From positions 4,096,001-4,160,000 of the forward strand of contig OZ242296.1 of the NCBI GenBank assembly GCA_965207735.1: a stretch of 64,000 nt of DNA. The letters run 5' to 3'. A program made the position numbers and the translations under genes. The stretch comes from Candidatus Versatilivorator sp. GTDB lineage: Bacteria; Acidobacteriota; Terriglobia; Versatilivoradales; Versatilivoraceae. Position 1 is the first letter of the stretch. Every line of letters starts with the position of its first letter. Shown here one piece after another: positions 11,913 through 41,705 of this stretch. Under the pieces are notes generated by a model, which saw only the letters and a program-made list of their open reading frames with translations, did no database searches and was not told where the DNA came from.

Positions 11913-11988
11913 CTCCCATTCACTCTTGCTCCTCAAGAGAGCGTGTCGGGTTGCCGGGCCGCAGCCCTGCCGTGCAGATCATGCGAGA

Positions 11989-12316
11989 GAGCCTCTTGCA
12001 ATATTGGCAGTGGGACAGGTCATTTTGCCGGCAATCGTGACGTTCTGCCTATTTCAATAGTCGGGTGCGACTTGGTGAAAAATGGGAGTTCACCACAAAA
12101 AGCACTAAACGAATTTCGTAATTTCGAGTCTTGACAATCTGAAGTTGATCCCCATGGCGACTGGTTGACCGAATGTAGGCAGAAAGCGCGGAACTTGTGC
12201 GACAGGTTCGGGAGTCATCGCCTTGCAGGCTTTCAGTGTTTTGCTCTTTTTGTGTTCTTGTGCCTTTTGTGGCCATCCCCGGCAAGGGTCACGCTGCCGA
12301 ATTTTGCAAAAGGCTC
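11989..12316. mobile_element. Putative MITE with GAGCC..TTGCAA terminal inverted repeats
   Basis: Left end GAGCCTCTTGCAATATTGGCAG; right end CTGCCGAATTTTGCAAAAGGCTC. The left end and interior recur at about 54272-54400. Confidence 0.65.
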
Positions 12317-22370: not shown

Positions 22371-22850
22371 TGGAGAGTGGAGAGTGAAGAGTGAAGAGTG
22401 GAGAGTTATTGGATCGACACGTTAAGCATCTTTTCTGAAACAAATGAAAAAAGAGTTATCCACGAAGTTGCACAAAGGGCCACTAAGGCGTTGAGGTTAA
22501 CCGCGCCGGGGTACCGGGGTGGCGGCGGGATGGTCGATTACTGATTGTCACACTCTGGTTTGATCCGCACGGCACGGCCGGGCTCGCGGACAAACGGAAG
22601 TTTCCCAAAAGGCGCCCGTCGGCTTTCAGAGAAGTTGCCCGCCGGATACGCTCCATCGCACCATCGGGACGACCCACCCGGGAGCGCGGGCGTCCCGCCC
22701 GCATCCTTTCCCTTGTTTGACCCCGAATGATCCGTATCGTCGTCGAAGACGGGGGACCGCCTAACTACTAATCCCTCTCCACTCTTCACTCTCCACTCTC
22801 CACTCTCCACTCTCCACTCTTCACTTCTCTCCACTCTCCACTAAATCACT
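22362..22850. repeat. Intergenic element bounded by inverted heptamer arrays (GTGGAGA)n / (TCTCCAC)n, with REP-like modules inside
   Basis: GTGGAGA/GTGAAGA about 5 times at 22370-22407 and the complementary array at about 22775-22842. The interior matches 61620-61760 and 41185-41315. Confidence 0.85.
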
Positions 22851-25859: not shown

Positions 25860-27770
25860 TTAATCTGGCTGGGAAGCCGCCAGCTTGACAATGCGAATGG
25901 CAGCGGCCTTGAACTCCGCGGTGCCCGACTTGGGATCGACGGCGTCGATGGTAAGCTGGTTGGTCTGAACCTCGTCCGGAAAATGCAGGGTCATAAAGGC
26001 CAGACCGGGGCGGAGACCGGTATCGAAACGGACCGGGGCAACGACCGAGCCGCGCCGTGACATCACCTTGACCCGCTCCCCCTCCCGAACCCCATAGCGC
26101 TCACCGTCTTCCGGAGACAGATCCAAGGACTCGCCCCGGCGGAGGGGAGAGGAGTAGGACGAAGTCTGGGCGCCTGTATTGTAGGAATCCAGGCGCCTGC
26201 CGGTGGTGAGTCTGAGTGGAAACTGATCGTCCAATTTGTCCACCGGAGGTTCGAACTCCACCGGGCTGAAGGGCGCCTGCGGTCCCAGCAGGGGCTGTTG
26301 CCACAACCGGCTGTGCAGGTAGAGCTCGCCCGGATGCGACTCGTCATAGCAAGGCCAGCGGATGCCGTCGAGGGCTTCCAGCCGCTCGTAGGTCATTCCC
26401 CGGTGCATTGGACTGAGGCTGCGGAGTTCGTCCCATATCCGCTTCGGATCCGGGGTGCCCCAGTTGCGACCCAGGCGGCGAGCCAACTCGAAGAGGATGT
26501 CCAGGTCATCCCGAACTCCGGGTGGCGGGGACAGCGCCCGGCGGACACGCTGCACCTTGCGCTCGCTGCTTGTGACGGTTCCTTCCGACTCGCACCAGCC
26601 GGCTGCAGCCGGCAGGACAACGTCTGCCATGGCCGCGGTGTCCGTCATCAGCAGGTCCTGCACCACCAGGCATTCCAATCCTTCCAGGAGACGCTGGGCC
26701 CGCCCCTGGTCGGCCTCCGACACCGCCGGGTTCTCTCCCAGAATGTAGAGGGCCGACAGCTTGCCTTCCTCCATGGCGTCGAACATTCCGCTGAGGTGCA
26801 GGCCCCGCTGGGATGGAATCTTTGCCCCCCAGGCCACTTCGAACCGGTCGCGGAGCAGGTCGTTCTCCACGTGCTGAAAACCGGGAAGCCGGTCCGGAAT
26901 GGCGCCCATGTCGCCGCCTCCCTGGACGTTGTTCTGTCCCCGAAGAGGATTGAGCCCACTCCCGTATTTGCCCACGTGACCCGTCAACAGAGCCAGGTTG
27001 ATCAGGGCCAGAACGTTGTCGACGGCGTTATGGTGCTCGGTGATCCCCAGTGTCCAGCAGAGTTCCGCCCGTTGGGCCCGGGCGTATTCATGAGCCAGCA
27101 TACGAATGCTCTCGGCCGGAACCCCGGTTTCCCGCTCGCCCCGCTCCAGGGTGTAGGAGTCCACCGATCGGCAGTATTCATCGAACCCGCTGGTGGCATG
27201 GTCGATGAAGGACCGATCCTCAAGGCCGGCGTCCAGAATCTCCCGGGCCATGGCGTTGGACAAGGCAATGTCGCTGCCCACCTCCAGGCCCAGCCAGCCG
27301 TCAGCCCATTGGGCCGAGCTGGTTCTGCGGGGATCGATGACAAAGAGCCGGGCCCCGCGCTTCACTCCCTTCAGCACATGGTGAAAGAAGATCGGGTGCG
27401 TTTCGCGAGCGTTCGATCCCCAGAGGATGATGAGGTCAGCGTCCTCGATTTCCTGGTAGGAACTGGTCCCGCCACCCATCCCGAAAACCGTCGCCAGACC
27501 GACGACGCTGGGAGCGTGTCAAGTGCGGTTGCAGCTGTCGATGTTGTTGCAGCCAATGACTGTACGAACGAACTTCTGGGCGGCGTAGTTGAGCTCGTTG
27601 GTCGTCTTGGAACAACTGAACATCCCGAAAGCCTGCGGCCCCCTGTCCCTGGCAACCCTCTCGAATCCCCGGGCGACCCGATCCAGGGCCACGTCCCAAC
27701 CTGCCGGATGAAGGCCTGCGCCATCCCTCACCAGAGGCTCGGTCAGCCGGTCGCCTCGTTTCCACTCCAT
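25860..27770 (-). CDS. Selenocysteine-containing Mo/W-bisPGD formate dehydrogenase catalytic subunit (636 aa)
   Basis: The ORFs at 27519-27800 and 25860-27479 are in the same frame, separated only by TGA at 27519-27521 in NNIDSCNRT-U-HAPSV, the FdhF metal-ligand position. Also PLRGQNNVQG and LTTGR, with a SECIS immediately downstream of the TGA. Confidence 0.92.
27489..27507 (-). promoter_or_regulatory. Bacterial SECIS element
   Basis: mRNA reads UGA, 11 nt, then CGUCGUC-GGUCU-GGCGACG, a 7-bp stem. Spacing and the GGUCU apical sequence match the E. coli fdhF SECIS. Confidence 0.85.
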
Positions 27771-27866
27771 GTTAGTCTTCCTTTCCCCCTTGAATTCCAA
27801 CGGCTCAAAAGTCTATCGTCACAACCGGAACCGATGCAAGCTCAAGTCGTTGACAGACAGACCGGA

Positions 27867-27895
27867 TTGACAAGGGCCTGATGACGCCCGATAAT
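27867..27895 (+). promoter_or_regulatory. Sigma70-type promoter for the ATP-grasp cluster
   Basis: TTGACA-17 nt-GATAAT, about 55 bp upstream of the start codon. Confidence 0.6.
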
Positions 27896-27948
27896 GCCGG
27901 AAATCAGCAACAGGTCCTCCGAAATCCTCCAAAAGAGTGAACGGCGCC

Positions 27949-29382
27949 ATGGAATTTGCCGCTTACGATCTTGACGACGGGATCTACGACGAGATGCTGC
28001 AGTCGAACGGGGAGCCTCGGGAGCATTCCCGATTGCTCTACGAGACCCTGTGCCAGCTCTCCAGCGAAGATATTGGCAGCATTCAGGAACGGGTCACCCG
28101 CTCCTTTTCGAACGAGGGTATCTCCTTCACGGTCTATGGGGACGCCGAAGCCAACGAGCGCATTATCCCAGTCGACTGCCTGCCCCGGATCCTGCCGGCT
28201 GCCGAGTGGAGGCATCTTGAAATCGGTCTGACGCAACGCCTCGCAGCCCTGAACCGCTTTCTGGATGATGTCTACGGGAAGGCCCGCATCATTGGTGACG
28301 GTGTGATTCCGGCTGACGTCGTGCGTGGCTGTCCCCAGTACCGCGGCGAAATGTGCGGCGTCTCCGTACCTCACGGAACCTGGGTGGCTGTCTGCGGCAC
28401 CGATCTGGTGCGCACCAACCAGGGATTCCAGGTGCTGGAAGACAACCTGAGGGTCCCCTCGGGCGTTTCCTACATGATCGCAAACCGCAAGGTCGTCAAG
28501 ACCAGTCTGCGCCGGCTGTACCGAAGTTCCCGGGTGCGGGGGGTCGAGCACTATGGGCGGCTGCTGCAAGAGACGCTGCGCGAGCTCTCCCCGAGCGGCC
28601 GTAACGACCCCTGCATCGCGCTACTCACGCCGGGAGTCTACAACTCGGCCTTCTACGAGCACATGTTCCTGGCCCGGGAGATCGGCGCGGAACTGGTGGA
28701 AGGCCGTGACCTTCTGGTCAACGGCGGTTTCGTCTACATGCGCACCACCACCGGACTGCGGCGCGTGGACGTGGTCTACCGGCGGGTCGACGACGACTTT
28801 CTCGATCCCCTGGTCTTCCGCGAGGACTCCCTGCTCGGTGTCCCCGGGCTGATCCACGCCTACAAGCTCGGCAACGTGGCCGTCGTCAACGCCCCCGGAA
28901 CGGGAATCGCAGACGACAAGAGCGTCTACGCTTATGTCCCCGACATGATTCGCTACTACCTGTCAGAGGAGCCTATCCTGGCCAACGTCCAAACGCATCT
29001 CTGCCGGCGGCCGGAGGATCTCGAGTACACCCTCGACAACCTGGAGAACCTGGTGGTGAAGCGTGTGGGCGAGTCGGGGGGCTACGGCATGCTGGTCGGT
29101 CCCCACTCAACCCCCGAGGAGCGCGAGGCCTATGCCGAGCAAATGCGGGCCAACCCGGCCGACTACATCTCCCAGCCGGTGCTGCCGCTGTCACGCGCAG
29201 CCTGCCTGGTCGAGGGCCGTCCCGAGCCCAGGCACGTGGACCTGCGCCCCTTCGTGCTTCACGGGACCACGACGCGTCTCGTGCCCGGAGCATTCTGCCG
29301 GGTAGCCTTGCGCCGCGGCAGCCTGGTGGTGAACTCCAGCCAGGGAGGCGGCGGCAAGGACCTCTGGGTATTGGAAGATTGA
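27949..29382 (+). CDS. Circularly permuted ATP-grasp (type 2) protein
   Basis: YDEM, VLEDNLRVPSGVSY, LTPGVYNSAFYEH, RVDVVYRRVDDDFLDP, GESGGYG, HVDLRPF and VVNSSQGGGGKD. Confidence 0.92.
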   Translation: MEFAAYDLDDGIYDEMLQSNGEPREHSRLLYETLCQLSSEDIGSIQERVTRSFSNEGISFTVYGDAEANERIIPVDCLPRILPAAEWRHLEIGLTQRLAALNRFLDDVYGKARIIGDGVIPADVVRGCPQYRGEMCGVSVPHGTWVAVCGTDLVRTNQGFQVLEDNLRVPSGVSYMIANRKVVKTSLRRLYRSSRVRGVEHYGRLLQETLRELSPSGRNDPCIALLTPGVYNSAFYEHMFLAREIGAELVEGRDLLVNGGFVYMRTTTGLRRVDVVYRRVDDDFLDPLVFREDSLLGVPGLIHAYKLGNVAVVNAPGTGIADDKSVYAYVPDMIRYYLSEEPILANVQTHLCRRPEDLEYTLDNLENLVVKRVGESGGYGMLVGPHSTPEEREAYAEQMRANPADYISQPVLPLSRAACLVEGRPEPRHVDLRPFVLHGTTTRLVPGAFCRVALRRGSLVVNSSQGGGGKDLWVLED

Positions 29383-29549
29383 ATGGGGTTGGCGCGGGAC
29401 GTCCGGCAGCCTGGCGGAAGCTTCTACGCCGCCAATTCAACCAGGGAAATCGATTTCTGCTGAATAATCTCTTGCGGAAGCAGTCGGAAGTAGATGTAGA
29501 GTACGGTTAATCGTCTCGCCGTTACCACTCGAACGGTCAGGAGGTATCT

Positions 29550-30944
29550 ATGCCGAAAAAAGCGATGAATGGGTTCTGGAATCATGGCCGCGCCGGCAAG
29601 CTGGCGGGAAAGACGCTCCTCCTGGTTGGCTGCCTGTTGCTTGGAACCACGGCCGCGCAGGCAGCGGTCGAAAGCGAAGTTATGTTCGTCTTCAACACCT
29701 TTTCCTTTCTGATCTGGGGCGCCCTGGTGATGTGGATGTGCGCTGGATTCACCATGCTGGAATCCGGCTCGGTTCGCACCAAGAACGCCTCCATGATCTG
29801 TCTGAAGAACATCGGCCTCTACTCGATTGCCGGTCTGGCCTACTATTTCATCGGCTACAACCTCATGTACGTCGATGTGGGGAGCGTGATCGGGTCATTC
29901 AAATTCCTTTACGGGCCGTCGGAGGCCGAAGTCGCCCTGCTAGCCGCATCCGAGGCGGCCGCCCCCTCAGCCGAACTGATCAAGAAGGGCTACTCCACCA
30001 TGTCGGACTGGTTCTTCCAGATGGTCTTTGTGGCCACGGCTGCCTCCATCGTATCGGGCACACTGGCGGAACGGGTCAAGATGTGGCCGTTTTTCCTCTT
30101 CACGCTGCTGCTGACCGCCATCATCTATCCCATTGTGGGCGCCTGGACCTGGGGCGGCGGCTGGCTGGATGCAATGGGCTTCAAGGACTTTGCCGGATCC
30201 ACCATCGTGCACGGCACCGGGGGTTGGGCGGCGCTTGCGGGCGCCATGGTAATCGGGCCCAGGTACGGCAAATTCCCCAAGGACGGCACCATCAAGGCCA
30301 CCCCGCCTTCCAACATCCTGGTGGTGACCTTGGGGGTTTTCATCCTGTGGTTCGGATGGTTCGGCTTCAACGGCGGCTCACAACTGGCGCTGGGGAGCGC
30401 AACTGACGCCATCGCCATGAGCCATGTGCTGGTCAACACCAACCTGGCGGCAGCCGCCGGAGTCATGACGGCCCTGGCTTTCTCGCGGACCATCCTGGGG
30501 CGCATGGATCTGTTTGCCGGACTGAACGGGGCCATTGCGGGGCTGGTCTCGATCACCGCCGCACCCGACATTGTGGAGCACCACTGGGCCGTGATCATCG
30601 GCGCCGTCGGAGCCATCATCTGCACCGCCGGACTGAAATTCCTGGAGAAAGTCAAGCTGGATGACGTGGTGGGAGCCGTGCCGGCCCACCTGTTCGCCGG
30701 CATCTGGGGAACTCTGGCGGTCTGTATCGCCGGGGGCGGCAATCTCGGTGTGCAGCTGATCGGCATCCTGGCCATCGGCGCCTTCGTGTTCGCCAGCTCC
30801 TGGGTGCTGTGGCGCCTGCTGGATCTGATCTTGACCGCTCGCGTGACCCGCCAGGTCGAGCAGCTGGGACAGGACGCCGGGGAATTGGGGATCGAAGCCT
30901 ATCCGGAGTTCGTGCTCATGCCGGAAGAGGAAGATCGGGACTGA
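29550..30944 (+). CDS. amtB: Ammonium transporter (Amt family)
   Basis: FFQMVFVATAASIVSG..AER, DFAGSTIVH, WFGWFGFNGGS and DDVVGAVPAH; about 11 TM helices; AGGAGG RBS. Confidence 0.93.
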   Translation: MPKKAMNGFWNHGRAGKLAGKTLLLVGCLLLGTTAAQAAVESEVMFVFNTFSFLIWGALVMWMCAGFTMLESGSVRTKNASMICLKNIGLYSIAGLAYYFIGYNLMYVDVGSVIGSFKFLYGPSEAEVALLAASEAAAPSAELIKKGYSTMSDWFFQMVFVATAASIVSGTLAERVKMWPFFLFTLLLTAIIYPIVGAWTWGGGWLDAMGFKDFAGSTIVHGTGGWAALAGAMVIGPRYGKFPKDGTIKATPPSNILVVTLGVFILWFGWFGFNGGSQLALGSATDAIAMSHVLVNTNLAAAAGVMTALAFSRTILGRMDLFAGLNGAIAGLVSITAAPDIVEHHWAVIIGAVGAIICTAGLKFLEKVKLDDVVGAVPAHLFAGIWGTLAVCIAGGGNLGVQLIGILAIGAFVFASSWVLWRLLDLILTARVTRQVEQLGQDAGELGIEAYPEFVLMPEEEDRD

Positions 30945-31116
30945 GGCGCACGTAGCGGGCGCGGATGGCTCCTTTCCGGAGACGGCTTGAATCCTTGTCG
31001 GAACCGCGGGATTTCCGGCCGCTACCTTCATAACGGACAGCGCCCGGCAAAGCGTGGTTTCCCGACGAGTTGGAGCCGAAGCGGAGACCGGATCCGTTTT
31101 CTATTGGAGAGGGATC

Positions 31117-32085
31117 GTGCTTTCGCGCAGCGCGCAGGGCCTTTACTGGATGGGCCGGTACCTGGAGCGTGCCCAGCACCTCTGCCGCCTGCTGCAACTA
31201 CAGGTGGAGGCCTTGGTGGACAGGCCTGTTTGGGAGATCCATCTCGGCTGGAGCAGAATCTACAACGCCTTGAACCGAGAGCCTCCATTCGGCGGCATCC
31301 AGTACGACAAGAGAGACAACTACACATTGGCCGATTCCTATACATTGGCTGGAGATCTCACCTTCGAGCGCTCCAATCCCGACTCGGTCTGGAACTGTTT
31401 CGCCCTGGGGCGCGAGAATGCACGGCAGATGCGCCACCGCATCAGCGCCGAGATGTGGATCTGTCTGAACCTGGCCTATCTGAGAATCCAGAAGTTGAGC
31501 ATCGAGGACATCTGGAAGACCTCGCCCGAGAATTTCTACTCGGAGACGGTGGAAGAAATTCATACCTTCTCGGGGGTCGCCGCCACGACCATGTACCGCG
31601 ACGAGGGTTGGCACTTCATGCAGTTGGGCCATTACATCGAGCGCGCCCAGCTTTCGGTCGCACTATTCCTGGCTCAGATGGCCACCGCCAAGCTCTACCA
31701 GGATTCCCCGGATGCGGACTGCACGGCCCTGCTACGCCTCTACCATGCCTTCGACGCTTATGACCGCAAGCACAGCGTCGAAATCCAGCCCCACCAGGTG
31801 CTGGACCTGCTGGCCGCCGACCCCCTGCTGCCCAACTCGCTCTGCCGCTCGTTGGACTCCGCCGCTGGAGAACTGGCTGCCATTGCTCATGGGCCGAGCG
31901 CGTCCAGCAGTGCCGCCGCCAGGCGGCTGGCAGGCCGCCTTCAAGCCCTGATCCGACATGAATGGCCCGATCGGCAAGATCGTGAGGCCATGCTTCGGCA
32001 GATCGGCGAGCATTGCCGGAACCTCCACAATCAAGTCATGGCCGCTTACATCGACTACAGTGTCGACGACGCCCCCGTGCACTAA
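31117..32085 (+). CDS. Alpha-E (DUF403) domain protein
   Basis: MLSRSAQGLYWMGRYLERA, RENARQMR..IS.EMW and GWHFMQLGHYIERA (two ER motifs). GTG start after GGAGAGGG. Confidence 0.9.
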   Translation: MLSRSAQGLYWMGRYLERAQHLCRLLQLQVEALVDRPVWEIHLGWSRIYNALNREPPFGGIQYDKRDNYTLADSYTLAGDLTFERSNPDSVWNCFALGRENARQMRHRISAEMWICLNLAYLRIQKLSIEDIWKTSPENFYSETVEEIHTFSGVAATTMYRDEGWHFMQLGHYIERAQLSVALFLAQMATAKLYQDSPDADCTALLRLYHAFDAYDRKHSVEIQPHQVLDLLAADPLLPNSLCRSLDSAAGELAAIAHGPSASSSAAARRLAGRLQALIRHEWPDRQDREAMLRQIGEHCRNLHNQVMAAYIDYSVDDAPVH

Positions 32086-32089
32086 TTCC

Positions 32090-33016
32090 ATGGCTGAAGC
32101 CGTCCACTACGACATTGAGCACCTCTCCCGCTACCGCTACAACCGCAGTCCAAAGCAGTGCGTGATGATGCTCTGTCTGAAACCTCGAGACGACCGGGGG
32201 CAGCGAGTTCTGAACTTTGAAATCGAAACCGACCCGGCCGTTATACTGACCTCCGAGCAGGATTGTTACGGCAATACGCGACACGTCTTCAATCTCAACA
32301 GAGAGCATCAGGTTCTGGAGATCACCGCGCGGTCCACGGTCTCCCCGGCCCCCTTCGGTCCCCTGCCCCACTCCCTTGGCGCAGGCGCCTGGAACGAGAT
32401 CCAGTCGTGGAAGAACTCCTTCGCTCTCTGGGACTTTATCTACCCAAGCGTTCTGACTCGACCGTCATCCTTTCTTGACGAATTCGTCGACCGGCACGAC
32501 ATCCGGCCCGGGAACGATCCTCTGGAGGGGCTGATGCGACTCTCGGACACGCTGCACGGCTGCTTCCGTTATACTCCCGGAAGCACCTCGGTGATGTCCT
32601 CCATCGAGCACATCCTGAAATCCGGCAGCGGCGTCTGTCAGGACTACGCCCACACCATGATTGCCATCGCACGCTCCTGGAGCATTCCTGCCCGCTATGT
32701 CTCGGGCTATCTGCACCTCGCCGGTCTGGATGGCGAGCAGGCGCCGGCAAACGCCACCCACGCCTGGGTCGAGTGCCTGCTTCCGGGACTCGGCTGGGTG
32801 GGATTCGACCCTACCAATCGGTGCCTGGCAGACGAGCGTCATGTGCGCATTGCCGTAGGACGCGACTACAGAGATGTTTCGCCTACCCGCGGAGTCCTGC
32901 GAGGGGGCGAGAACGCCGGTATAGAGGTTGCCGTCAAGGTGAACGCCCGTGCAAATCCCCAAACCACACCGGAAGAGGTCATCGTGGACAGGGGCGGTGT
33001 CCTGTCTCGGAAATAG
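32090..33016 (+). CDS. Transglutaminase-like protein with Bact_transglu_N domain
   Basis: Cys-His-Asp triad in GVCQDYAH, ATHAWVE and WVGFDPTN; GRDYRDVSP. Confidence 0.92.
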   Translation: MAEAVHYDIEHLSRYRYNRSPKQCVMMLCLKPRDDRGQRVLNFEIETDPAVILTSEQDCYGNTRHVFNLNREHQVLEITARSTVSPAPFGPLPHSLGAGAWNEIQSWKNSFALWDFIYPSVLTRPSSFLDEFVDRHDIRPGNDPLEGLMRLSDTLHGCFRYTPGSTSVMSSIEHILKSGSGVCQDYAHTMIAIARSWSIPARYVSGYLHLAGLDGEQAPANATHAWVECLLPGLGWVGFDPTNRCLADERHVRIAVGRDYRDVSPTRGVLRGGENAGIEVAVKVNARANPQTTPEEVIVDRGGVLSRK

Positions 33017-33182
33017 GGTTGCCAAATTTCGGAGAGCAGGGTGCCGGAAACATGGATTTTCCGTTCGAGTACTCTGGTAAGCCCATTTTTGCTACACTAG
33101 AGCGTTCTTTGTGAGCAGCTAACTATAATGCGGGTGTCACGGCCAACCGGAGGTTGAACCTGACATCAAGGAGACGAGGCCG

Positions 33183-33518
33183 ATGGAGATTAGTACGGAG
33201 CGGGAAGGTACGCTCCTGGTTGCAAGGGCGGGAGGTCGCCTCGACAGTATCAATGCACGAGAGTTCGACGATGCCTTGAAATCCGCGATCAGCGAAAGCG
33301 ACCAGGTTTTGATTATGGATCTGGAGCAAGTCTCGTACGTCAGCAGCGCGGGCCTTAGGGTGATTCTGCTGACCGCCAAGACCCTCCAGCAAAGGAGCGC
33401 GAAGCTGCTGATCTGCTCGCTCGCGGAGCCAATTCGGGAGGTCTTCGAAATCAGTGGCTTCGACAAGATCATCCCGATACATGCAGATCTGGCCGCGGCA
33501 AAAGCCTCTATGGGCTAA
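33183..33518 (+). CDS. STAS-domain anti-sigma factor antagonist (RsbV/SpoIIAA-like)
   Basis: GRLD and VSYVSSAGLRV (phosphorylatable Ser); VFEISGF. Confidence 0.9.
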   Translation: MEISTEREGTLLVARAGGRLDSINAREFDDALKSAISESDQVLIMDLEQVSYVSSAGLRVILLTAKTLQQRSAKLLICSLAEPIREVFEISGFDKIIPIHADLAAAKASMG

Positions 33519-33685
33519 TGGCGATCGCCTTTCCGGCGGTCTGGCGGGGACGACTTCCCTTTTGACCGGGGTGATTTCGACCGGACCATGGTGCGCGAGG
33601 CAGTGCTTCCTCCCAAAATTGGTAGTCCGGCATTTGCAAGCAAGTTAGGCGTTTCGGGTAGAGCCATGGGATCCCCGGTAGGGGG

Positions 33686-34864
33686 ATGGACCAACAGATG
33701 AGTTGGAAATACAAGATACTGGTCGTGGACGATGAGCCTGATCTCGAACGGCTCATGCTGCAGCGAATGCGTCGCGATATTCGCGCCGGCCTCTACAAGT
33801 TCGTCTTTGCCCACAATGGCGTGGAAGCCCTCGACCTGCTGAAGGAACAGCCGGACATCGACCTGGTGCTCTCCGACATCAATATGCCCAAGATGGACGG
33901 ACTGACACTGATCGAGCAGATCCCCAAGGTCCAACCCGATATCCGCTCGGTGATCATCTCGGCCTATGGCGACATGAAAAACATCCGCACGGCGATGAAC
34001 CGGGGCGCCTTCGACTTTGTCACCAAGCCGATTGACTTCGACGACCTGAAACTCACCATCTCGCGCACCCTTCAGCACCTTGTCGAATGGCGCGAAGCTC
34101 TTGAATCGCGCGACAAGCTGGTGGCTTTGCAAAACGAGCTCGGCGTCGCCAGCAAGATACAGCAGTCCATCCTGCCCACCCGTTTCCCCGAAAGGCCCGG
34201 CTGCCGCATCTTCGCCAACATGAAGCCTGCCCGCAACGTGGGAGGGGACTTCTTCGACGTCATCCACCTCGCGGACGGCCGAATCGGCATCGCCATCGCC
34301 GACGTATCGGACAAGGGGGTTCCCGCCGCGCTCTTTATGATGTCCTGCCGCACGTTGATCAAGGGTGCGGCCATCGGCAAAACCGATCCCGGAGAAGTGC
34401 TGCACGAGGTGAACCAGTTGCTGCAGGAGGACAACGACGCCTCCATGTTCGTGACTGTTTTCTATGGCGTCTACGACCCCGACAGCCGGCGATTCCACTA
34501 TGCCAACGGAGGGCACAATTCTCCTCTGGTTGTGCATGCGGACGGAACCTCCGCCGAGTTGCCCCTGACCGGAGGCATCGCTCTGGGGTTGTTGCCTGAT
34601 CTCAACTACGATAACAAGACCGTGACCCTCGTTCCCGGGGACTTGATCGTTCTGTACACCGACGGTGTCACCGAGGCCTTCGACGAACAGGGGAACCAGT
34701 TCGGCGCCCAGCGCCTGCAAGAGGTCTTTGCAGGGGCTGAGCCGACAGATGTCAAAGTAGCCAACCGTTCCGTTTTCGAAGCCGTAGAGAAATTCGCCGG
34801 CGACACCCCGCAGTCCGACGACATCACTTGCGTGACACTCCTGCACGGTAGCGACGGCGGCTAA
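33686..34864 (+). CDS. Response regulator receiver fused to a SpoIIE/PP2C phosphatase (RsbU-like)
   Basis: ILVVDDE, SDINMPKMDG and FVTKP, then VGGDFFD, IADVSDKGVPAAL, YTDGVTEA and QSDDIT. Confidence 0.93.
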   Translation: MDQQMSWKYKILVVDDEPDLERLMLQRMRRDIRAGLYKFVFAHNGVEALDLLKEQPDIDLVLSDINMPKMDGLTLIEQIPKVQPDIRSVIISAYGDMKNIRTAMNRGAFDFVTKPIDFDDLKLTISRTLQHLVEWREALESRDKLVALQNELGVASKIQQSILPTRFPERPGCRIFANMKPARNVGGDFFDVIHLADGRIGIAIADVSDKGVPAALFMMSCRTLIKGAAIGKTDPGEVLHEVNQLLQEDNDASMFVTVFYGVYDPDSRRFHYANGGHNSPLVVHADGTSAELPLTGGIALGLLPDLNYDNKTVTLVPGDLIVLYTDGVTEAFDEQGNQFGAQRLQEVFAGAEPTDVKVANRSVFEAVEKFAGDTPQSDDITCVTLLHGSDGG

Positions 34865-34869
34865 TTCCG

Positions 34870-35277
34870 ATGCTTTCTTTGTGTCTCGAATCCCGACTCG
34901 AGGAGTTGCAACGACTCGAAGCGGCCGTTGAGGATCTTGGGGAGCAGGAGCAGTGGCCCCCAAACCTCCTCTACCAGGTCAAACTGGTTCTGGAGGAGGT
35001 GATCGTCAACATCATCAACTACGGCTACGAGGGAGGGGGGCACAAGATCGACGTCCACCTGATCTCCGAACCGGACATCCTCACCATTAAAATTGCCGAC
35101 GACGGCCGCGCCTTCGATCCACTGAGCCAGGCCCCGACACCCGATGTGGACGCCAACCTCGAAGACCGTCCCATCGGCGGGTTGGGCGTTTACCTGGTGC
35201 AAACCCTGATGGATGAAGCCCGTTACCGTCGGGAACAGGACAGAAATCATCTGACATTGGTCAAGCGGAGGGACTGA
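34870..35277 (+). CDS. Anti-sigma factor Ser/Thr kinase (RsbW/SpoIIAB-like)
   Basis: LEEVIVNIINYG, DDGRAFDP and GGLGVYLV. Confidence 0.9.
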   Translation: MLSLCLESRLEELQRLEAAVEDLGEQEQWPPNLLYQVKLVLEEVIVNIINYGYEGGGHKIDVHLISEPDILTIKIADDGRAFDPLSQAPTPDVDANLEDRPIGGLGVYLVQTLMDEARYRREQDRNHLTLVKRRD

Positions 35278-36464
35278 TGAGTCCGGCGCGCCGGATAGCG
35301 GCAGCGCTGCTGCTCGCCTTCGGCTCTCTATTCTGTTGGCAAACCGCGGGCTTGGCGCAAGAGGTTGGCGTCTATGAGAATCGTATCCTCTTTGGACAAT
35401 CGGCTGCCTTCACCGGACCCGCTCGAGAGCTGGGGCGGAACATGCGTCTGGGAATCAAAGCGGCCTTTCACGAGGCCAATGCGCGAGGCGGCGTTCACGA
35501 GCGGCAGCTGGAACTGCAAAGCCTCGACGATGCCTATGAGCCCGAAGCAGCCATTGACAACACCCACCAACTGATCCACACCCACAAGGTCTTCGCCCTC
35601 ATCGGAGCCGTGGGCACGCCGACCTCGCGCGCATCCACCCCCGTGGCCGCCAGCGCCGGAGTTCCATACATCGCGCCCTTCACCGGCGCCGCCTTCCTGA
35701 GGGAAAAAGAGTGGAAAAACGTCATCAACCTGCGGGCCTCCTACCGTCAGGAGATCGATACCATGGTCTCCCACTTGACCGACAAACTTGGCATCGACCG
35801 CATCGGCGTGATGTATCAGGACGATTCGTTCGGCCGTGACACCTACCGCAGTTTGAGACGCTCCCTGGGAAGACGTCAGCTCAAGCCGGTATCGGTGGGG
35901 GTATATCAGCGCAACACCACCGCCGTGAAGACGCCTCTTCTCGACCTGCGCGCCGAAAATCCCGGCGCGGTGATTCTCATCGGGGCCTACAAGCCGGTCG
36001 CCTCCCTGATCGCATGGGCACGCCACACCCGAATGAACGCGGTCTTCATGGCGCTCTCCTTCGTGGGGAGCAACGCCTTGTCCGAAGCGCTCGGTCCCGC
36101 CGGCGTCGGGGTATTCGTGACCCAGGTGGTTCCTCCGCCAACCGATACCACCTACCCCATCACCGCCAACTACAACCGCGCCCTGTGGGCCTTCGACTCG
36201 GACGCCACTCCCGGATTTGTCTCGTTCGAAGGCTACCTGGCCGGCCGCCTGGCCATCGCGGCCCTGGAACGTTGCGGCCGGGAGGTGGACCGAGCCGGCT
36301 TTCTCGACAGCCTGCGTCTCTCCGAACCCATCGATCTGGACGGGTTCGAGCTCCGCTTCGGTGACAGCGACAACCAGGGCTCCGATTCCGTATTCCTGAC
36401 CAGGATCGGCCGCGACGGTTACTATCACCCCATCGAGACGCTACGCATCGGGGTTCGACCGTGA
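35277..36464 (+). CDS. Periplasmic ligand-binding protein (branched-chain amino acid/LivJ fold)
   Basis: Signal peptide; FGQSAAFTGP, LDDAYEP, IGAVGTPT and NLRASY. No ABC permease nearby; overlaps the kinase gene (GTGA). Confidence 0.85.
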   Translation: MSPARRIAAALLLAFGSLFCWQTAGLAQEVGVYENRILFGQSAAFTGPARELGRNMRLGIKAAFHEANARGGVHERQLELQSLDDAYEPEAAIDNTHQLIHTHKVFALIGAVGTPTSRASTPVAASAGVPYIAPFTGAAFLREKEWKNVINLRASYRQEIDTMVSHLTDKLGIDRIGVMYQDDSFGRDTYRSLRRSLGRRQLKPVSVGVYQRNTTAVKTPLLDLRAENPGAVILIGAYKPVASLIAWARHTRMNAVFMALSFVGSNALSEALGPAGVGVFVTQVVPPPTDTTYPITANYNRALWAFDSDATPGFVSFEGYLAGRLAIAALERCGREVDRAGFLDSLRLSEPIDLDGFELRFGDSDNQGSDSVFLTRIGRDGYYHPIETLRIGVRP

Positions 36465-38923
36465 TCGACCGGCTGCGACGCCTGCTGAAGAACCGATTCC
36501 GCTCCGGGGAATCAAAGCGCCCTGCCGGCAAGACCGATACCCGAACAGGTCAGTCAATCGCGGCTGTCGGCGCCGGCCTGCTGCAGCAACTGATCGAGAG
36601 CCGATTCCTGACCGCGATTTTGAGCCCTTTGTCCCGCCTGATCGGGACCGAGAGGCTTCAACGCAATCGCGGGCTGGCGGTGGAGCTGCTGCAGCGGCTG
36701 CGTGAAGGTCGAATCGGGCTGGGAATGCAGCTCTATATAGGGATCGGCGGCGCTGTGGTCATCACCCTGTCGGCGAGCCTGGTGGCCTGGTTCTCCTTCA
36801 ATCAGGTGGGAGATTCCCAGAATCGAGTCAACGAGGACAGTATCCCGGAAATGACGGCCGCCTTCGGTGTGGCGCGCCAGGCCGGCACCCTGGTGGCGGC
36901 GGCCCCGCGCCTGGTGACCGCCGCAACTCCGGTCGATTTCACCAGTGTCGCTGCCGCGGTTGCCAAGGAGCAAACGGACTTCGAGACACGCCTTCAAGCC
37001 CTGACCCCCCGGGAGGGTGAAGAAGAAACGGTCTCACGCATTCTGGCCCATGGGAGTGAAATTATCTCCAACATCGGGGCCATTCGGGATTCGGTATCCC
37101 AGTCTTTCTTGCTGAGCCGGCAAAGCGAAGAGCTGCTCACGAAGCTGGAAACCCTGCAGGATGAACTGACCCGCATCCTGGTGCCCGCCATCGATGACCA
37201 TCTCTTCTATGCGCTGACCGGCTACCGAAACCTCGGCCAACGGCCGACCTCCCCGGGACGGCACTTCTCGAAGTCCGAGTTCAACCGCTACCGCTACATG
37301 ATTGAATTGCAGGCACATGCGACCACTGCGACCCAGCTTCTTGCCGGTGTCACCAATCTGACGGAAATCCCCGTGATCGAACCCGTTCGGGAGCGTTTCG
37401 AGTCCGCCCGCGACGGTATCGGGCGCAGCCTTGTGGCTCTCGGAAGCGCTCCGTTGCGGGACAGGATCACCCCGGTTTTCGACCAACTGCTGGACTTGGG
37501 GCTGGGGGAACAGAATGGATTCGATCTCCGAGCCGAGGAGCTGGGTCTCGCCAACAGGCAGCGGGATCTGCTGGAGCGCAATCGTAAACTCTCCGTCGAC
37601 CTGGTGGCTGAAGTCGAAGGGATGGTAGGTTCGGCCAGTGCGCGAGCCCAGGATGCGGCTCTCTCTTCCACGCAAGCCATCCTCACCGGACGCAGACTGC
37701 TTCTGGTCCTGAACCTGGTCAGTATCAGCGGGGCCGTGCTGATCGGTTGGCTGTTTGTCGGGCGGATTCTGTTGCGCCGCCTCAAGAACCTGTCCGATCG
37801 CATGCGCGGCATGGCCGGAGGCGATCTGGAGGCCCAGGTGGAGATCAGCGGGCGCGATGAGGTCGCCGAGATGGCGGCAGCTCTGGAGGTATTTCGACGT
37901 CACGCCCTGGAGGTTCAGCGTTTGAACCTGGTCGAGAAGCTGGCCGAAGAACTGAAGGGAAAGAACTCTCAGCTCGAAAAAGCCATGGACGATCTGCGCA
38001 AGGCTCAGGATCAGATCGTCATGCGCGACAAACTGGCGGAACTCGGCCAACTTACCGCGGGCGTCGCCCACGAGATCAAGAATCCGCTCAATTTCGTCAA
38101 GAACTTCTCGGAAGTCTCAGAGGAATTGATGGAGGAACTGGGGGAGGTCCTCACCGACAACCAGGAGAAGCTGAGCAAGGACGACCGGGAGTTGATCGAG
38201 GAGATTTCCGGAGATCTGACCGGCAATCTCAAGAGCATCCGCCACCACGGCGACCGCGCCAACCGGGTGATACACGACATGCTGTCGATGGGACGAGGTT
38301 CGGGTGAGCGGCAACCGACCGACATCAACGGCCTGCTCGATCAAAGCACTCGACTGGCCTACCACAGCGCCCGGGCCACCGACAAGTCGTTCAACCTGGA
38401 CATCAAGCAGGATCTGGACCCCCGGATTGAAACCATCGACGTCGTCTCTCAGGACGTGGGACGGGTCTTCCTCAACCTGGTCAGCAACGCCTGCTATGCC
38501 ACCGATGAGAAACGGCGTTCCCTGGGGACGGACGGTGGAGAACAGGCCGATGGGGATGGCGAATACAGTCCGACCCTGTGGCTCAGCACCAAGCGCCTGG
38601 AGGACCGGATCGAAATTCGCGTGCGGGACAACGGGAGCGGCATTCCCGCCGATGTCGTCGAGAAGATCTTCAACCCGTTCTTCACCACCAAGCCCACCAA
38701 CGAGGGAACCGGGCTCGGGTTGGCACTGTCCAACGACATCGTGCGAGAGCATGGAGGGGCCATCAAGGTGGAGACCGAACCCGGCAGCTTCACCGAGATG
38801 TTGGTCGAATTGCCCCTGGAATCCCCCGCGGCAATGGCCGAACAAGAAGACGCGGACGATGAGGACGATGAGCCGGTGCTTTCCGCCGGTGAATCGGACA
38901 AGCTCGATTCCAGGGGCTCGTGA
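36461..38923 (+). CDS. Membrane sensor histidine kinase (large helical periplasmic domain, HAMP, HisKA, HATPase)
   Basis: Two TM segments; HAMP (GRDEVAEMA); GVAHEIKNPLNF; NLVSNA; DNGSG; FFTTKP..GTGLGL. Confidence 0.92.
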   Translation: MIDRLRRLLKNRFRSGESKRPAGKTDTRTGQSIAAVGAGLLQQLIESRFLTAILSPLSRLIGTERLQRNRGLAVELLQRLREGRIGLGMQLYIGIGGAVVITLSASLVAWFSFNQVGDSQNRVNEDSIPEMTAAFGVARQAGTLVAAAPRLVTAATPVDFTSVAAAVAKEQTDFETRLQALTPREGEEETVSRILAHGSEIISNIGAIRDSVSQSFLLSRQSEELLTKLETLQDELTRILVPAIDDHLFYALTGYRNLGQRPTSPGRHFSKSEFNRYRYMIELQAHATTATQLLAGVTNLTEIPVIEPVRERFESARDGIGRSLVALGSAPLRDRITPVFDQLLDLGLGEQNGFDLRAEELGLANRQRDLLERNRKLSVDLVAEVEGMVGSASARAQDAALSSTQAILTGRRLLLVLNLVSISGAVLIGWLFVGRILLRRLKNLSDRMRGMAGGDLEAQVEISGRDEVAEMAAALEVFRRHALEVQRLNLVEKLAEELKGKNSQLEKAMDDLRKAQDQIVMRDKLAELGQLTAGVAHEIKNPLNFVKNFSEVSEELMEELGEVLTDNQEKLSKDDRELIEEISGDLTGNLKSIRHHGDRANRVIHDMLSMGRGSGERQPTDINGLLDQSTRLAYHSARATDKSFNLDIKQDLDPRIETIDVVSQDVGRVFLNLVSNACYATDEKRRSLGTDGGEQADGDGEYSPTLWLSTKRLEDRIEIRVRDNGSGIPADVVEKIFNPFFTTKPTNEGTGLGLALSNDIVREHGGAIKVETEPGSFTEMLVELPLESPAAMAEQEDADDEDDEPVLSAGESDKLDSRGS

Positions 38924-39037: not shown

Positions 39038-40474
39038 GTGAGAGAAACAGGAATTACCGAGCCGATGGCTCTCTGCCAAGCGTCACATCAGGTCTCGATC
39101 GACCCTCCAAGGCGGCCCCCCCGGGGGAATGGCTCCGCCCCACTAAAGCGGGCGGTCCTTGCCGGACTGATCTGGATCCTGTCGGCCCCCGTCGCTTTCG
39201 GTCAAGGCGGCGCCCCCAAGCGGGACGAAACTCCCGGCACGCTGCAGAGCGGTCTGGGGGACGAACTGCCGGGCTGGCTCTCCTTGTCCGGCGAGTTCCG
39301 CTTCCGCTTCGAAAACCCACAGGGGCTGGGCTATAGCGAGGACAGCGACGACGGCTACGGACTGACGCGGACCCGTCTGGATCTGGGGGTCCGGCCGGTC
39401 GCCTGGCTGAACTTCGGGATTCAGGCACAGGACTCCAGGGCCCCGGGGATCCGGCCGGCCCTTTCCGACTCCGGAGCCGTCCGGGATCCGTTCGACTTGC
39501 GCCAGGCCTACGCCGAGATCGGCGCCAGTCGGTCCCCGGCGTCACTGAAGGTGGGCAGGCAGGCGCTGATCTACGGCGACTCGCGCCTGATCGGAGCTCC
39601 GAACTGGTCCAACACCTCCCGCGTCTTCGACGCCGTAAGGCTGCAGATGCGGGGATCGGGCGCCAAGCTCGACCTTTTCTCGGCCTCGGTGGTGCGCAAC
39701 GACCCCAACCGCCGCTTGAACCGATCGGTCGAGGGAGAATACCTGCACGGCCTCTACGGCTCCCTGGAGAACGTCATCCCGGGATCCACTCTCGAACCCT
39801 ACCTGCTCTGGCAGACGAAGTCCTCGGTAGTCAACGAGCTGAACGCACCCGGAGATCTGGACCGTTATACCCTGGGCTTCAGGGCTTGGGGCAAGGGACT
39901 TGGGCCCTGGGACTACAACGCCGCCCTGGTCCGCCAGTGGGGGCAGGTGGCGGGGTCGGATATCCAGGCCTGGGCCTATTACGGAGAACTGGGCTATTCG
40001 ATCGAGGCCAGACTGAACCCACGCCTCTATATCCACTACAACTTCGGATCGGGCGACAAGGACCCCGAAGACGGCCGATTCGGGGGCTTCGTGAACCTCT
40101 ATCCCACCACCGCCTTTTTGTACGGCCGCGCCAACCGGGTCGGCTGGCGCAACCACAAGGGTCTGCGCCTGGGGAGCGAGTTCAAGCCGCACTCCAAGCT
40201 GACGCTACTATTGGAATTCCACTCCTTCTGGCTGGCCTCCAAGACCGATGCCCTCTACAGCGCGGGCGGGCAAGTGTCGGTGGCCCCGCCCCCCGGAGGC
40301 GCCCGGGACGCAAAGGTCGGCAACGAAGTCGACGCCGTCTTCACCGTGCCGGTAACAGACAACTTCAGCCTGGGAGCCGGCCTCGCACACATGCTTCCCG
40401 GCCCCTTTGTCAAGGCCAATACCCCCGGCCACCCATTCACTTACGCCTACCTGTTCACCAGCTACAAGTTCTGA
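39038..40474 (+). CDS. Alginate-export-family outer-membrane beta-barrel protein
   Basis: GEFRFRFE, DLRQAY, VGRQ.LIYGD.RLIG..NW.N..R.FD, GSGD and a terminal YKF. Start uncertain. Confidence 0.8.
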   Translation: MRETGITEPMALCQASHQVSIDPPRRPPRGNGSAPLKRAVLAGLIWILSAPVAFGQGGAPKRDETPGTLQSGLGDELPGWLSLSGEFRFRFENPQGLGYSEDSDDGYGLTRTRLDLGVRPVAWLNFGIQAQDSRAPGIRPALSDSGAVRDPFDLRQAYAEIGASRSPASLKVGRQALIYGDSRLIGAPNWSNTSRVFDAVRLQMRGSGAKLDLFSASVVRNDPNRRLNRSVEGEYLHGLYGSLENVIPGSTLEPYLLWQTKSSVVNELNAPGDLDRYTLGFRAWGKGLGPWDYNAALVRQWGQVAGSDIQAWAYYGELGYSIEARLNPRLYIHYNFGSGDKDPEDGRFGGFVNLYPTTAFLYGRANRVGWRNHKGLRLGSEFKPHSKLTLLLEFHSFWLASKTDALYSAGGQVSVAPPPGGARDAKVGNEVDAVFTVPVTDNFSLGAGLAHMLPGPFVKANTPGHPFTYAYLFTSYKF

Positions 40475-40940: not shown

Positions 40941-41094
40941 TCCTCCCCCTTCCGGGCCCAACGGCCCAACCGGATCGTTTGAGAACCGTCAACAGGTTGT
41001 GGAGGGAGAGATGCCGGTGGGGAAGCACTCCGGCAATGTGGCGAGAGAGCCCTGCTATCTTATCCTAGAAACCGCTCACGCTCACGGATGGCTG

Positions 41095-41705
41095 CTGTCG
41101 CCGGCTACGCGGCTCAACTCTTAAGCCAACCCGATCCATGGGCTGACGCCCACGGCTAAGTGCTACCGCCACCTTGGCGGCTGTGGGGCTGGGCTCGCGG
41201 ACAAACGGGAGTTTTCCAGAAGGCGACCGTCGGCTTTCAGAGAATTCGCCCGCCGGATGCCCTCCATCGCACCATCGGGACGCCCCCCCCGGGAGCGCGG
41301 GCGTCTCGCCCGCACAGGACTTGGCACCATTGTAACGATCCCCACAATGGCCGGTTTGGTGCACTGTGCGAGGAAGTGGCCCTGCATCGCAGGCTGTTTG
41401 CACGAATAAGGTTGCGGGCGGGACGCCCGCGCTCCCGGGGGGGCATTCTCCCATGACGCCGTGACACCTACGTCACAATATTGCAGAAGCACCCGGGCGC
41501 CGCTCGTCATTGACCGAGCTCCATCCCTATTCGTCCCCATTCGTGTTCATTGGTGGTTCGTCTTCATTTCCAAAACCAAAACGGCTGGCTGTTTATCCTG
41601 TCTATCCTGTGCATCCATGTTCAATCAGTAGAAAACCGGTTTTGCACGACATGGCCCCTATTCCCGACAGGACATGAAGATTCGTTGTTTTACTCTCGTA
41701 CGATC
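41095..41705 (-). repeat. Composite intergenic repeat (inverted copy of 11480-11912 plus a module shared with 22578-22705)
   Basis: Long reverse-complement similarity to 11480-11912, with a REP-like pair at about 41290 and 41415. Confidence 0.85.

What the first reader, a model, noticed from the sequence alone, without database searches (positions are those of the whole stretch)
27949..33016. Ammonium transporter embedded inside a CP-ATP-grasp / alpha-E / transglutaminase peptide-ligase cluster
Seen: a co-directional run of ATP-grasp, amtB, alpha-E and transglutaminase. No glnK is next to amtB and no Anbu-type peptidase is present. Known: the ATP-grasp + alpha-E + transglutaminase trio is a predicted but uncharacterised peptide-synthesis or protein-tagging system in which the first two genes are normally adjacent, and amtB is usually paired with glnK. 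Inference: the system may couple ammonium uptake to a glutamyl/isopeptide nitrogen store or tag, or modify or regulate Amt in place of GlnK.
Basis: partly seen in the sequence, partly recalled or inferred. Interest (0 to 1): 0.7.

Follow-up and report, generated by a model that had tools for sequence, protein, structure and literature searches.

The report
Ammonium transporter inside orphan ligase operon
An ammonium-transporter gene with its known transport residues intact sits inside a three-enzyme gene cluster of unknown product in bacteria of two phyla, likely because both serve nitrogen supply and are likely transcribed together, not because the enzymes act on the transporter.

Summary
The order is CP-ATP-grasp, Amt, alpha-E, transglutaminase-like, with no glnK alongside and no Anbu found in the genome.

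The insertion is not unique: it is in all 14 genomes of the genus examined, in two other families of the phylum and in six Dehalococcoidia. It occurs in 26 of 60 loci of one ATP-grasp clade and in 0 of 85 loci outside it. It is optional, and no ATP-grasp residue separates amt+ from amt- copies.

The Amt is an Amt1/marine-type protein, not E. coli-type AmtB. Its pore residues are intact and it fails the published ammonium-receptor signature. This genome has a PII gene elsewhere, so 'replaces GlnK' is weak.

One genome puts an unrelated amt-PII pair ahead of the same cassette.

Best reading: a horizontally shared nitrogen-supply cassette, linked by co-expression. The trio's induction by nitrogen limitation is already published, and the scan found this arrangement before on other genomes. 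No expression or binding data were obtained.

The parts
27867..27895 (+). sigma-70-type promoter-like site (TTGACA-17-GATAAT) ahead of the ATP-grasp gene
   Evidence: 11 of 12 matches; 1 site found vs 1.5 in shuffles, so not significant alone; both hexamers kept in 12 of 13 aligned genus members
27949..29382 (+). circularly permuted ATP-grasp protein (COG2308 type), 477 aa
   Evidence: PF14403 E 4.5e-152; PDB 3N6X E 1.7e-157; 85 columns invariant over 123 relatives
29550..30944 (+). Amt1/marine-type ammonium transporter, 464 aa, with W201, S277, F160/F273 and H221/H380 intact and a clade-specific YPEF-VLMPE-acidic tail
   Evidence: PF00909; TIGR03644 509 vs cut-off 514; alignment to Sd-Amt1, Ks-Amt5, Af-Amt1
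31117..32085 (+). Alpha-E (DUF403) protein, 322 aa, all-helical, both ER motifs kept; a divergent subfamily (about 28-31% to typical members)
   Evidence: PF04168 E 9e-66; model pLDDT 91.8
32090..33016 (+). transglutaminase-like protein, 308 aa, catalytic triad C183-H224-D240
   Evidence: PF01841 + PF08379; 3ISR E 3e-11; triad in 21 of 21 aligned rows
33183..33518 (+). STAS-only (anti-anti-sigma-like) protein with conserved S54-S55, first gene of the linked partner-switch module
   Evidence: PF01740; S54, S55 invariant in 38 rows
33686..34864 (+). receiver + SpoIIE/PP2C phosphatase (linked module)
34870..35277 (+). RsbW-like HATPase_c_2 kinase (linked module)
35277..36464 (+). periplasmic binding protein, Peripla_BP_6 (linked module)
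36461..38923 (+). membrane histidine kinase with a weak TorS-like sensor match (below cut-off), HAMP, HisKA and HATPase (linked module)

Best explanation
This is likely one transcription unit of a horizontally shared nitrogen-supply cassette, in which the Amt likely imports ammonium while the three enzymes are predicted to make and undo ATP-dependent amide bonds, and the genes are likely joined by shared nitrogen-linked expression, not by the enzymes acting on the transporter. Shown: gene order, conservation, intact pore residues and catalytic triad, optional amt, and no nearby PII. Inferred, in order: (1) RNA polymerase starts at the conserved sigma-70-like promoter and reads through all four genes. 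(2) The Amt trimer conducts NH4+. (3) The ATP-grasp activates a carboxylate, most likely a glutamyl one, as an acyl phosphate and joins it to an amine, with alpha-E as partner or acceptor. (4) The Cys-His-Asp protein reverses or transfers that bond. (5) The neighbouring STAS/phosphatase/kinase module likely gives post-translational control. The amt was captured one to a few times by one ATP-grasp clade and was kept because it is useful under the same conditions.
For: Conservation: the order is kept in 13 of 13 other genus genomes, in G328 and four genomes of genus g100, in six Dehalococcoidia and in metagenome locus L130. That is 26 of 60 in-clade loci against 0 of 85 out-of-clade loci. Operon features: promoter hexamers kept in 12 of 13; gaps down to 37 nt and -14 nt in relatives; no terminator-like site in the gaps. 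Transporter: all pore residues invariant in 59 of 59 rows. Loose coupling: amt absent in 34 of 60 in-clade loci; no column separates 25 amt+ from 23 amt- ATP-grasps at 85%; the transglutaminase has left the locus in all six Dehalococcoidia and lies elsewhere in three of the four searched. Independent nitrogen links: G042 has an unrelated amt (31%) plus PII directly ahead of the module and the trio, all on one strand; soil locus L206 has porin-PII-trio. In print: the trio is induced by nitrogen limitation in P. putida (passages of PMC3235984 and PMC5666114, citing Hervas 2008, not read); it is NtrC-dependent in B. cenocepacia (PMC5491218, table passages); and the Y. bercovieri ATP-grasp releases phosphate from ATP (PMC6376114, passages).
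Against: No expression data exist for this locus. The promoter is of housekeeping type, and my regex scan found no sigma-54 or NtrC-like site upstream of any of the four genes although rpoN is present. Rfam found no riboswitch (0 hits). So nitrogen regulation here is borrowed from other bacteria. The gaps in this genome are long (167, 172 nt) and the amt/alpha-E gap can fold (z -2.1). All amt+ ATP-grasps fall in one clade (96* support), so the 26 cases may descend from one or two events, which neutral inheritance could also give. The chemistry of the trio is unknown.
Confidence: 0.5

Rival explanations
1. The Amt is an input or target of the neighbouring partner switch: a phosphorylation-controlled STAS protein, not GlnK, binds the Amt's conserved acidic tail, and the switch couples ammonium status to the ligase trio.
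For: 0 of 13 close Amt relatives have PII within 700 nt, against 35 of 66 more distant ones. A STAS gene lies within 800 nt of 8 of 31 free-standing copies, in several different orders, and between ATP-grasp and amt in L130. The module is in 29 of 49 in-clade loci and 0 of 85 outside. The N1 ammonium-site ligands of Sd-Amt1 and the Glu-Lys pair are kept (PMC11152129 passages). The tail motif LMP is 94-100% conserved and absent from outgroup alignments. An Amt-SpoIIE fusion exists in SAR11 (L124; described in PMC11796062 passages). PII was not found in five amt-inserted Dehalococcoidia that carry STAS-phosphatase-kinase next door.
Against: The full receptor signature is met by 0 of 59 rows, because both N2 ligands are replaced (Q to C64, D to L90). 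The module has its own binding protein and kinase as input. 23 of 31 free copies show no STAS in the flanks fetched (1.5-6 kb). PII exists in 20 of 25 amt-inserted genomes. An independent-pairs test had only 1 usable pair.
Confidence: 0.17
2. Direct metabolic coupling: the ATP-grasp uses imported ammonium itself as the amine, amidating glutamyl carboxylates into a nitrogen store that the transglutaminase-like protein later deamidates.
For: ATP-grasp chemistry goes through an acyl phosphate, and ammonia release by the transglutaminase is one published hypothesis (PMC6376114 passages). In G328, ATP-grasp and amt are intact while alpha-E and transglutaminase are broken. The clade has 10 diagnostic substitutions, four of them in the C-terminal motifs (447-470). 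In the phylum sample all 12 genomes with this Amt clade also have this ATP-grasp clade (12 of 13; 251 searched).
Against: The diagnostic residues are shared by amt- copies. Ammonium reaches the cytoplasm wherever amt lies. The genome has two full glutamine synthetase genes. The co-occurrence is confounded by kinship and probably habitat, and is weaker in Dehalococcoidia (9 shared of 11 and 15; 151 searched).
Confidence: 0.15
3. Hitchhiking: amt landed once between two genes, was tolerated, and spread with the cassette without any shared function.
For: All amt+ ATP-grasps sit in one clade with 5 state changes. The ATP-grasp/alpha-E junction tolerates an unrelated GGDEF gene elsewhere (L185, L186). 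The 11 further gammaproteobacterial loci have no amt.
Against: The gene is kept intact across ATP-grasps only 72-82% identical and in two phyla, with gaps trimmed to overlap. Inserted Amts are weakly rejected as one clade (AU p 0.039, group adjusted after seeing the tree). A different Amt family and PII were recruited next to the same cassette (G042; L206).
Confidence: 0.13
4. The trio tags or processes the Amt's acidic C-terminal tail and so replaces GlnK.
For: The tail ends in conserved acidic residues, like the acceptor of RimK-type glutamate ligases (PMC11957051 passages for RimK). amt overlaps alpha-E by 14 nt in five genomes, and PII was not found in those five.
Against: The same tail occurs in free-standing copies, including genomes where the clade's ATP-grasp was not found. 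The trio is far more widespread than this Amt. PII is present in this genome.
Confidence: 0.05

Closest known systems
COG2308-COG2307-COG1305 trio / 'Anbu operon' (Valas & Bourne 2008, PMC3235984, passages read; Piasecka et al., PMC6376114, passages read; Fuchs et al., PMC5666114, passages read; Iyer et al. 2009 not held, known only through these citations)
   Same: Same three families in the same order; the ATP-grasp matches PDB 3N6X at E 1.7e-157; ER motifs and Cys-His-Asp triad are kept.
   Different: No Anbu found in the genome; amt inserted after the first gene; divergent alpha-E subfamily; 10 clade-specific ATP-grasp substitutions; recurrent partner-switch module alongside; sigma-70-like promoter where Burkholderia has NtrC/sigma-54 dependence.
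glnK-amtB operon (established knowledge; E. coli AmtB PDB 1U77/2NS1)
   Same: Amt fold and all pore residues (Trp, Ser, Phe gate, twin His).
   Different: Amt1/marine subtype (E 5e-23 to E. coli AmtB against 1e-64 to Sd-Amt1); no adjacent PII in 13 of 13 close relatives. A separate amt-PII pair survives elsewhere in 2 of the 14 genus genomes (G001, G011).
Ammonium receptors Ks-Amt5 and Sd-Amt1 (PMC11152129, passages read) and SAR11 Amt-phosphatase fusions (PMC11796062, passages read)
   Same: These are the nearest solved structures; N1 ligands E71, N87, S166, S169, K86 and the exit-narrowing N326 are kept.
   Different: No fused output domain; both N2 ligands replaced; signature met by 0 of 59.
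SpoIIAA/SpoIIAB/SpoIIE- and RsbV/RsbW/RsbU-type partner switches (established knowledge)
   Same: STAS with conserved serine, receiver-PP2C phosphatase, HATPase_c_2 kinase.
   Different: No sigma factor gene in the module; its input is a binding protein plus a TorS-like kinase; it recurs beside the ligase trio and Amt.

Membership tests
CP-ATP-grasp / alpha-E / transglutaminase trio | CP-ATP-grasp family gene first | tested here: met
   PF14403 506.8 bits vs cut-off 32; 3N6X
CP-ATP-grasp / alpha-E / transglutaminase trio | Alpha-E with two ER motifs | tested here: met
   PF04168 222.9 bits; R18 invariant, E17, E175, R176 at 90% or more of 137 rows
CP-ATP-grasp / alpha-E / transglutaminase trio | transglutaminase-like protein with Cys-His-Asp | tested here: met
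   C183, H224, D240; 21 of 21 rows
CP-ATP-grasp / alpha-E / transglutaminase trio | ATP-dependent ligase activity and product | not testable with these tools
   the product is unknown in the papers read
Anbu operon (four genes) | Anbu peptidase gene | tested here: not met
   the only PF00227 hit is hslV beside hslU; the same search rings in 10 of 14 control genomes
Anbu operon (four genes) | induction by nitrogen limitation | not testable with these tools
   needs expression data; no sigma-54/NtrC-like site by regex, no Rfam hit
Amt/Mep/Rh transporters | PF00909 domain with Trp/Ser vestibule, Phe gate and twin His | tested here: met
   invariant in 59 of 59
Amt/Mep/Rh transporters | ammonium conduction | not testable with these tools
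   inferred from residues only
AmtB (E. coli type) / glnK-amtB operon | AmtB equivalog score and adjacent glnK | tested here: not met
   NF007947 108 vs 657; nearest PII about 420 kb away
TIGR03644 marine-subtype Amt | score above curated cut-off | tested here: inconclusive
   509.3 vs 514, full-length match
Ammonium receptor (AmR; Ks-Amt5, Sd-Amt1) | N1/N2 signature QX6EX15NX2D(F/T)X54-60TX2(S/T) | tested here: not met
   0 of 59; Q to C, D to L/I, T to S; N1 ligands kept
Ammonium receptor (AmR; Ks-Amt5, Sd-Amt1) | fused output domain | tested here: not met
   the protein ends 13 residues after the Pfam match
Partner-switch module | STAS with phospho-acceptor serine + PP2C phosphatase + RsbW-type kinase | tested here: met
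   (identity of the acceptor serine is recalled from SpoIIAA)
Partner-switch module | controlled sigma factor or other output | not tested
   no sigma gene among the module's ORFs; output not sought elsewhere

The most novel reading that the evidence does not exclude
A PII-independent nitrogen-control circuit shared between phyla: an Amt transceptor with a half ammonium-sensing site and a conserved acidic tail talks to a phosphorylation-switched STAS protein instead of GlnK, and this switch turns on an ATP-grasp/alpha-E/transglutaminase machine that banks ammonium in reversible amide bonds.
Probability: 0.17. Interest if true: 0.78.

Novelty: new variant of a known kind. Interest (0 to 1): 0.42.

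Why it matters
The COG2308-2307-1305 trio has had no known substrate or product since its description in 2008-2009, in the papers I could read. Its recurrent company of ammonium transporters of two different families, PII and a phosphatase/kinase switch narrows the search to nitrogen handling. It also suggests concrete assays: NH4+, Glu and Gln as amine or acyl partners. The Amt clade that never sits beside PII but often beside STAS offers a testable alternative to GlnK control. The nitrogen link of the trio itself is not new, and no mechanism was shown here, so interest is moderate.

Tried and rejected
- Expression: no RNA holder listed.
- Complex prediction of two Amt copies with STAS: no answer (scores 0.00, 0.38, 0.00; controls not folded). 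It is not used as evidence either way. Amt with alpha-E was not modelled, since only one job was allowed.
- Alpha-E fold: no sequence match in the PDB, no Foldseek match at E <= 0.001, and only generic helical bundles by VIA-align (best Z 11.3 over 124 residues). This is uninformative.
- Rfam over 27400-33700: 0 hits at E <= 1.
- Sigma-54/NtrC regex: none before the four genes, and none before either glnA, so the scan is weak.
- Recent arrival of amt: rejected; its GC3 of 0.815 matches the ATP-grasp (0.808), and the gaps hold no repeated element.
- A substrate change tied to amt: no diagnostic column.
- Independent-pairs test of amt insertion against module adjacency: too few pairs (G010 left out because its contig ends, G011 set to 'module present').
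- Order of G045 (Acidimicrobiia): 0 of 201 genomes had this ATP-grasp clade.
- Trees: rows were tblastn-aligned stretches; for three frameshifted ATP-grasps only the longest piece was used; G003 and most distant metagenome loci were left out; 8 of 14 genus Amts were used.
- Literature: seven searches listed no paper whose title or abstract describes amt inside this trio or Amt-STAS linkage. Most subscription papers and all supplements were unseen. Iyer 2009 and Hervas 2008 were not held, and their supplements could show such neighbourhoods.
- bioRxiv 10.64898/2026.04.15.718621 (outline and passages): two mycobacterial proteins that I recall as members of this family were tested only as negative candidates for another reaction.
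- PMC11957051 (passages): a different ATP-grasp/transglutaminase operon.
Full report
1. Observation. The host is likely an acidobacterium: 16 matches to the acidobacterial VWFA model pass the cut-off, against none over the cut-off in 14 control genomes. The genome is one 5.26-Mb contig. It has one ATP-grasp of this family, two amt genes, one PII gene far away and no Anbu, only hslV beside hslU. The Amt is not E. coli-type AmtB: it scores 509 against a cut-off of 514 on the marine subtype model and 108 against 657 on AmtB.

2. Conservation. All 13 other genomes of the genus have ATP-grasp, amt, alpha-E in this order; in G003 and G010 the contig ends before or in the transglutaminase. Five relatives from other genera of the family or class have a distant ATP-grasp (52-62%) directly followed by alpha-E. 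Wider searches show one clade of ATP-grasps at 69% identity or more. It was found in 13 of 251 genomes of the phylum, 11 of 151 Dehalococcoidia, 12 of 85 genomes of a gammaproteobacterial family, 0 of 201 genomes of an acidimicrobial order, and 9 of the 80 metagenome loci kept. In this clade amt is inserted in 26 of 60 loci: 14 of the genus, G328, four of genus g100, six Dehalococcoidia, and L130, where a reversed STAS gene also lies in the gap. Outside the clade it is in 0 of 85 loci. On the ATP-grasp tree all amt+ rows fall in one branch (SH-aLRT 96) of 30 rows that also holds five amt- rows, 5 changes in all. On the Amt tree the inserted copies are mixed with free ones (7 changes), and their monophyly is weakly rejected (AU p 0.039, group adjusted after seeing the tree). 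So there were one to a few captures, then transfer between phyla and repeated loss or release. The 26 cases are not 26 independent events. Lineage names among the named relatives (for example Ca. Rariloculaceae) suggest marine, probably sponge-associated bacteria; that is recalled, not tested.

3. One transcript? A TTGACA-17-GATAAT site at 27867-27895 is not significant alone, but both hexamers are kept in 12 of 13 aligned genus members while the spacer varies. No terminator-like site lies in either gap. In relatives the first gap shrinks to 37 nt and the second to 4 nt or a 14-nt overlap. Against: here the gaps are 167 and 172 nt, and the second folds somewhat better than shuffles (z -2.1). 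No riboswitch and no sigma-54/NtrC-like site was found. Co-transcription is therefore likely but inferred.

4. The proteins. The Amt keeps W201, S277, F160/F273 and H221/H380 in 59 of 59 rows, so it is likely a working channel. Against the receptor Sd-Amt1 (PMC11152129, passages) it keeps the N1 ligands (E71, N87, S166 for Thr, S169) and K86, but replaces both N2 ligands; the published signature is met by 0 of 59. The clade has its own tail, YPEF-VLMPE plus acidic residues, the same in inserted and free copies. The ATP-grasp matches PDB 3N6X at E 1.7e-157. Ten columns mark the clade, but none separates 25 amt+ from 23 amt- copies. Alpha-E is a divergent subfamily with both ER motifs and an all-helical model without an informative fold match. 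The transglutaminase-like protein keeps C183-H224-D240. The parts are separable: in the six Dehalococcoidia the transglutaminase is not in the locus (found elsewhere at 47-54% in three of four searched), and in G328 alpha-E and transglutaminase are broken while ATP-grasp and amt are whole.

5. Downstream lies STAS, receiver-PP2C, RsbW-like kinase, periplasmic binding protein and histidine kinase (33183-38923). At least one gene of this module is in the fetched flanks of 29 of 49 in-clade loci, upstream, downstream or convergent, and in 0 of 85 out-of-clade loci. None was seen in the 11 further gammaproteobacterial loci. STAS genes also lie within 800 nt of 8 of 31 free copies of this Amt. PII lies within 700 nt of 0 of 13 close relatives against 35 of 66 distant ones. 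In G042 an unrelated amt (31%) and PII stand directly before the module and the trio, and soil locus L206 has porin, PII, trio. These are independent nitrogen links. PII was found in 40 of 46 genomes searched, including 19 of 24 other amt-inserted ones. It was not found in the five related Dehalococcoidia with the 14-nt overlap, nor in G128. Within the phylum sample the Amt clade and the ATP-grasp clade co-occur almost fully (12 of 13), less so in Dehalococcoidia (9 shared of 11 and 15); kinship and habitat confound this.

6. Mechanism. Best reading (0.5): a co-transcribed nitrogen-supply cassette. Amt imports ammonium, the trio makes and reverses ATP-dependent amide bonds, and the link is shared expression. 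Every functional step is inferred. Rivals: Amt as partner of the STAS switch in place of GlnK (0.17); ammonium as direct substrate for a nitrogen store (0.15); hitchhiking (0.13); tagging of Amt by the trio (0.05).

7. Known systems and novelty. The trio is the Anbu-operon set without Anbu. Passages of PMC3235984, PMC5666114 and PMC6376114 report induction by nitrogen limitation in P. putida (citing Hervas 2008, not read), phosphate release from ATP by the Y. bercovieri ATP-grasp, and no confirmed function. Table passages of PMC5491218 place the DUF404/DUF403/transglutaminase genes under NtrC in B. cenocepacia. Amt-phosphatase fusions in SAR11 are described in PMC11796062 (passages) and seen here in L124. 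Seven literature searches listed nothing on amt within the trio; Iyer 2009 was not held. The scan itself noted this arrangement before: 15 findings in at least 13 genomes. These are unchecked AI notes and are not counted as support. Verdict: real, conserved, a new variant of a known kind; interest 0.42.

Noticed in passing
window 25860-27770 (-): The divergent molybdopterin (formate dehydrogenase-like) gene reads through an in-frame TGA at 27519-27521 in the context CNRT-U-HAPSV, a likely selenocysteine; selA is in the genome. NuoF-like and 2Fe-2S/4Fe-4S subunit genes follow.
   Followed up: yes
L272, L273, L284, L285 vs L244-L247 (genus g100): Each of four genomes has two near-identical copies of this amt, one in the operon and one behind a STAS gene. 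In three of the four the copies group by genome, which suggests gene conversion.
   Followed up: partly
L212, L218 (G042): amt (other family)-PII-STAS-RR/PP2C-RsbW-binding protein-kinase-ATP-grasp-alpha-E-transglutaminase, all on one strand.
   Followed up: partly
L243 (G328): Alpha-E has a large internal deletion with a frame break and the transglutaminase is truncated, while ATP-grasp and amt are whole.
   Followed up: partly
L031 (G001) 4688-6120; L254 (G427); L138: ATP-grasp split by a frameshift; real or an assembly error is not known.
   Followed up: no
L124 300-2450: Amt-SpoIIE phosphatase fusion in a Pelagibacteraceae record, as described in PMC11796062.
   Followed up: yes
L206 1115-4714: BBP2 outer-membrane porin, PII, then the trio, in a metagenome contig.
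   Followed up: partly
L185, L186 (7410-9107 in L185): A 565-aa protein that looks by eye like TPR repeats plus a GGDEF domain is inserted between ATP-grasp and alpha-E in distant relatives.
   Followed up: no
window 33124-33129: A perfect TATAAT precedes the STAS gene, so the signalling module may have its own promoter; it was not flagged by the scan.
   Followed up: no
window 39038-40474: An alginate-export-family outer-membrane barrel directly follows the histidine kinase on the same strand; its linkage in relatives was not checked.
   Followed up: no
G000:C1:1830343-1832454: The second amt (26% to the first) is followed by an aminotransferase-like gene and a convergent MazEF-like pair, named by eye.
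   Followed up: no
window 11682-12134, 22538-22834, 41065-41540: Related GC-rich repeated elements occur in several intergenic regions, seen as similar spurious ORFs.
   Followed up: no
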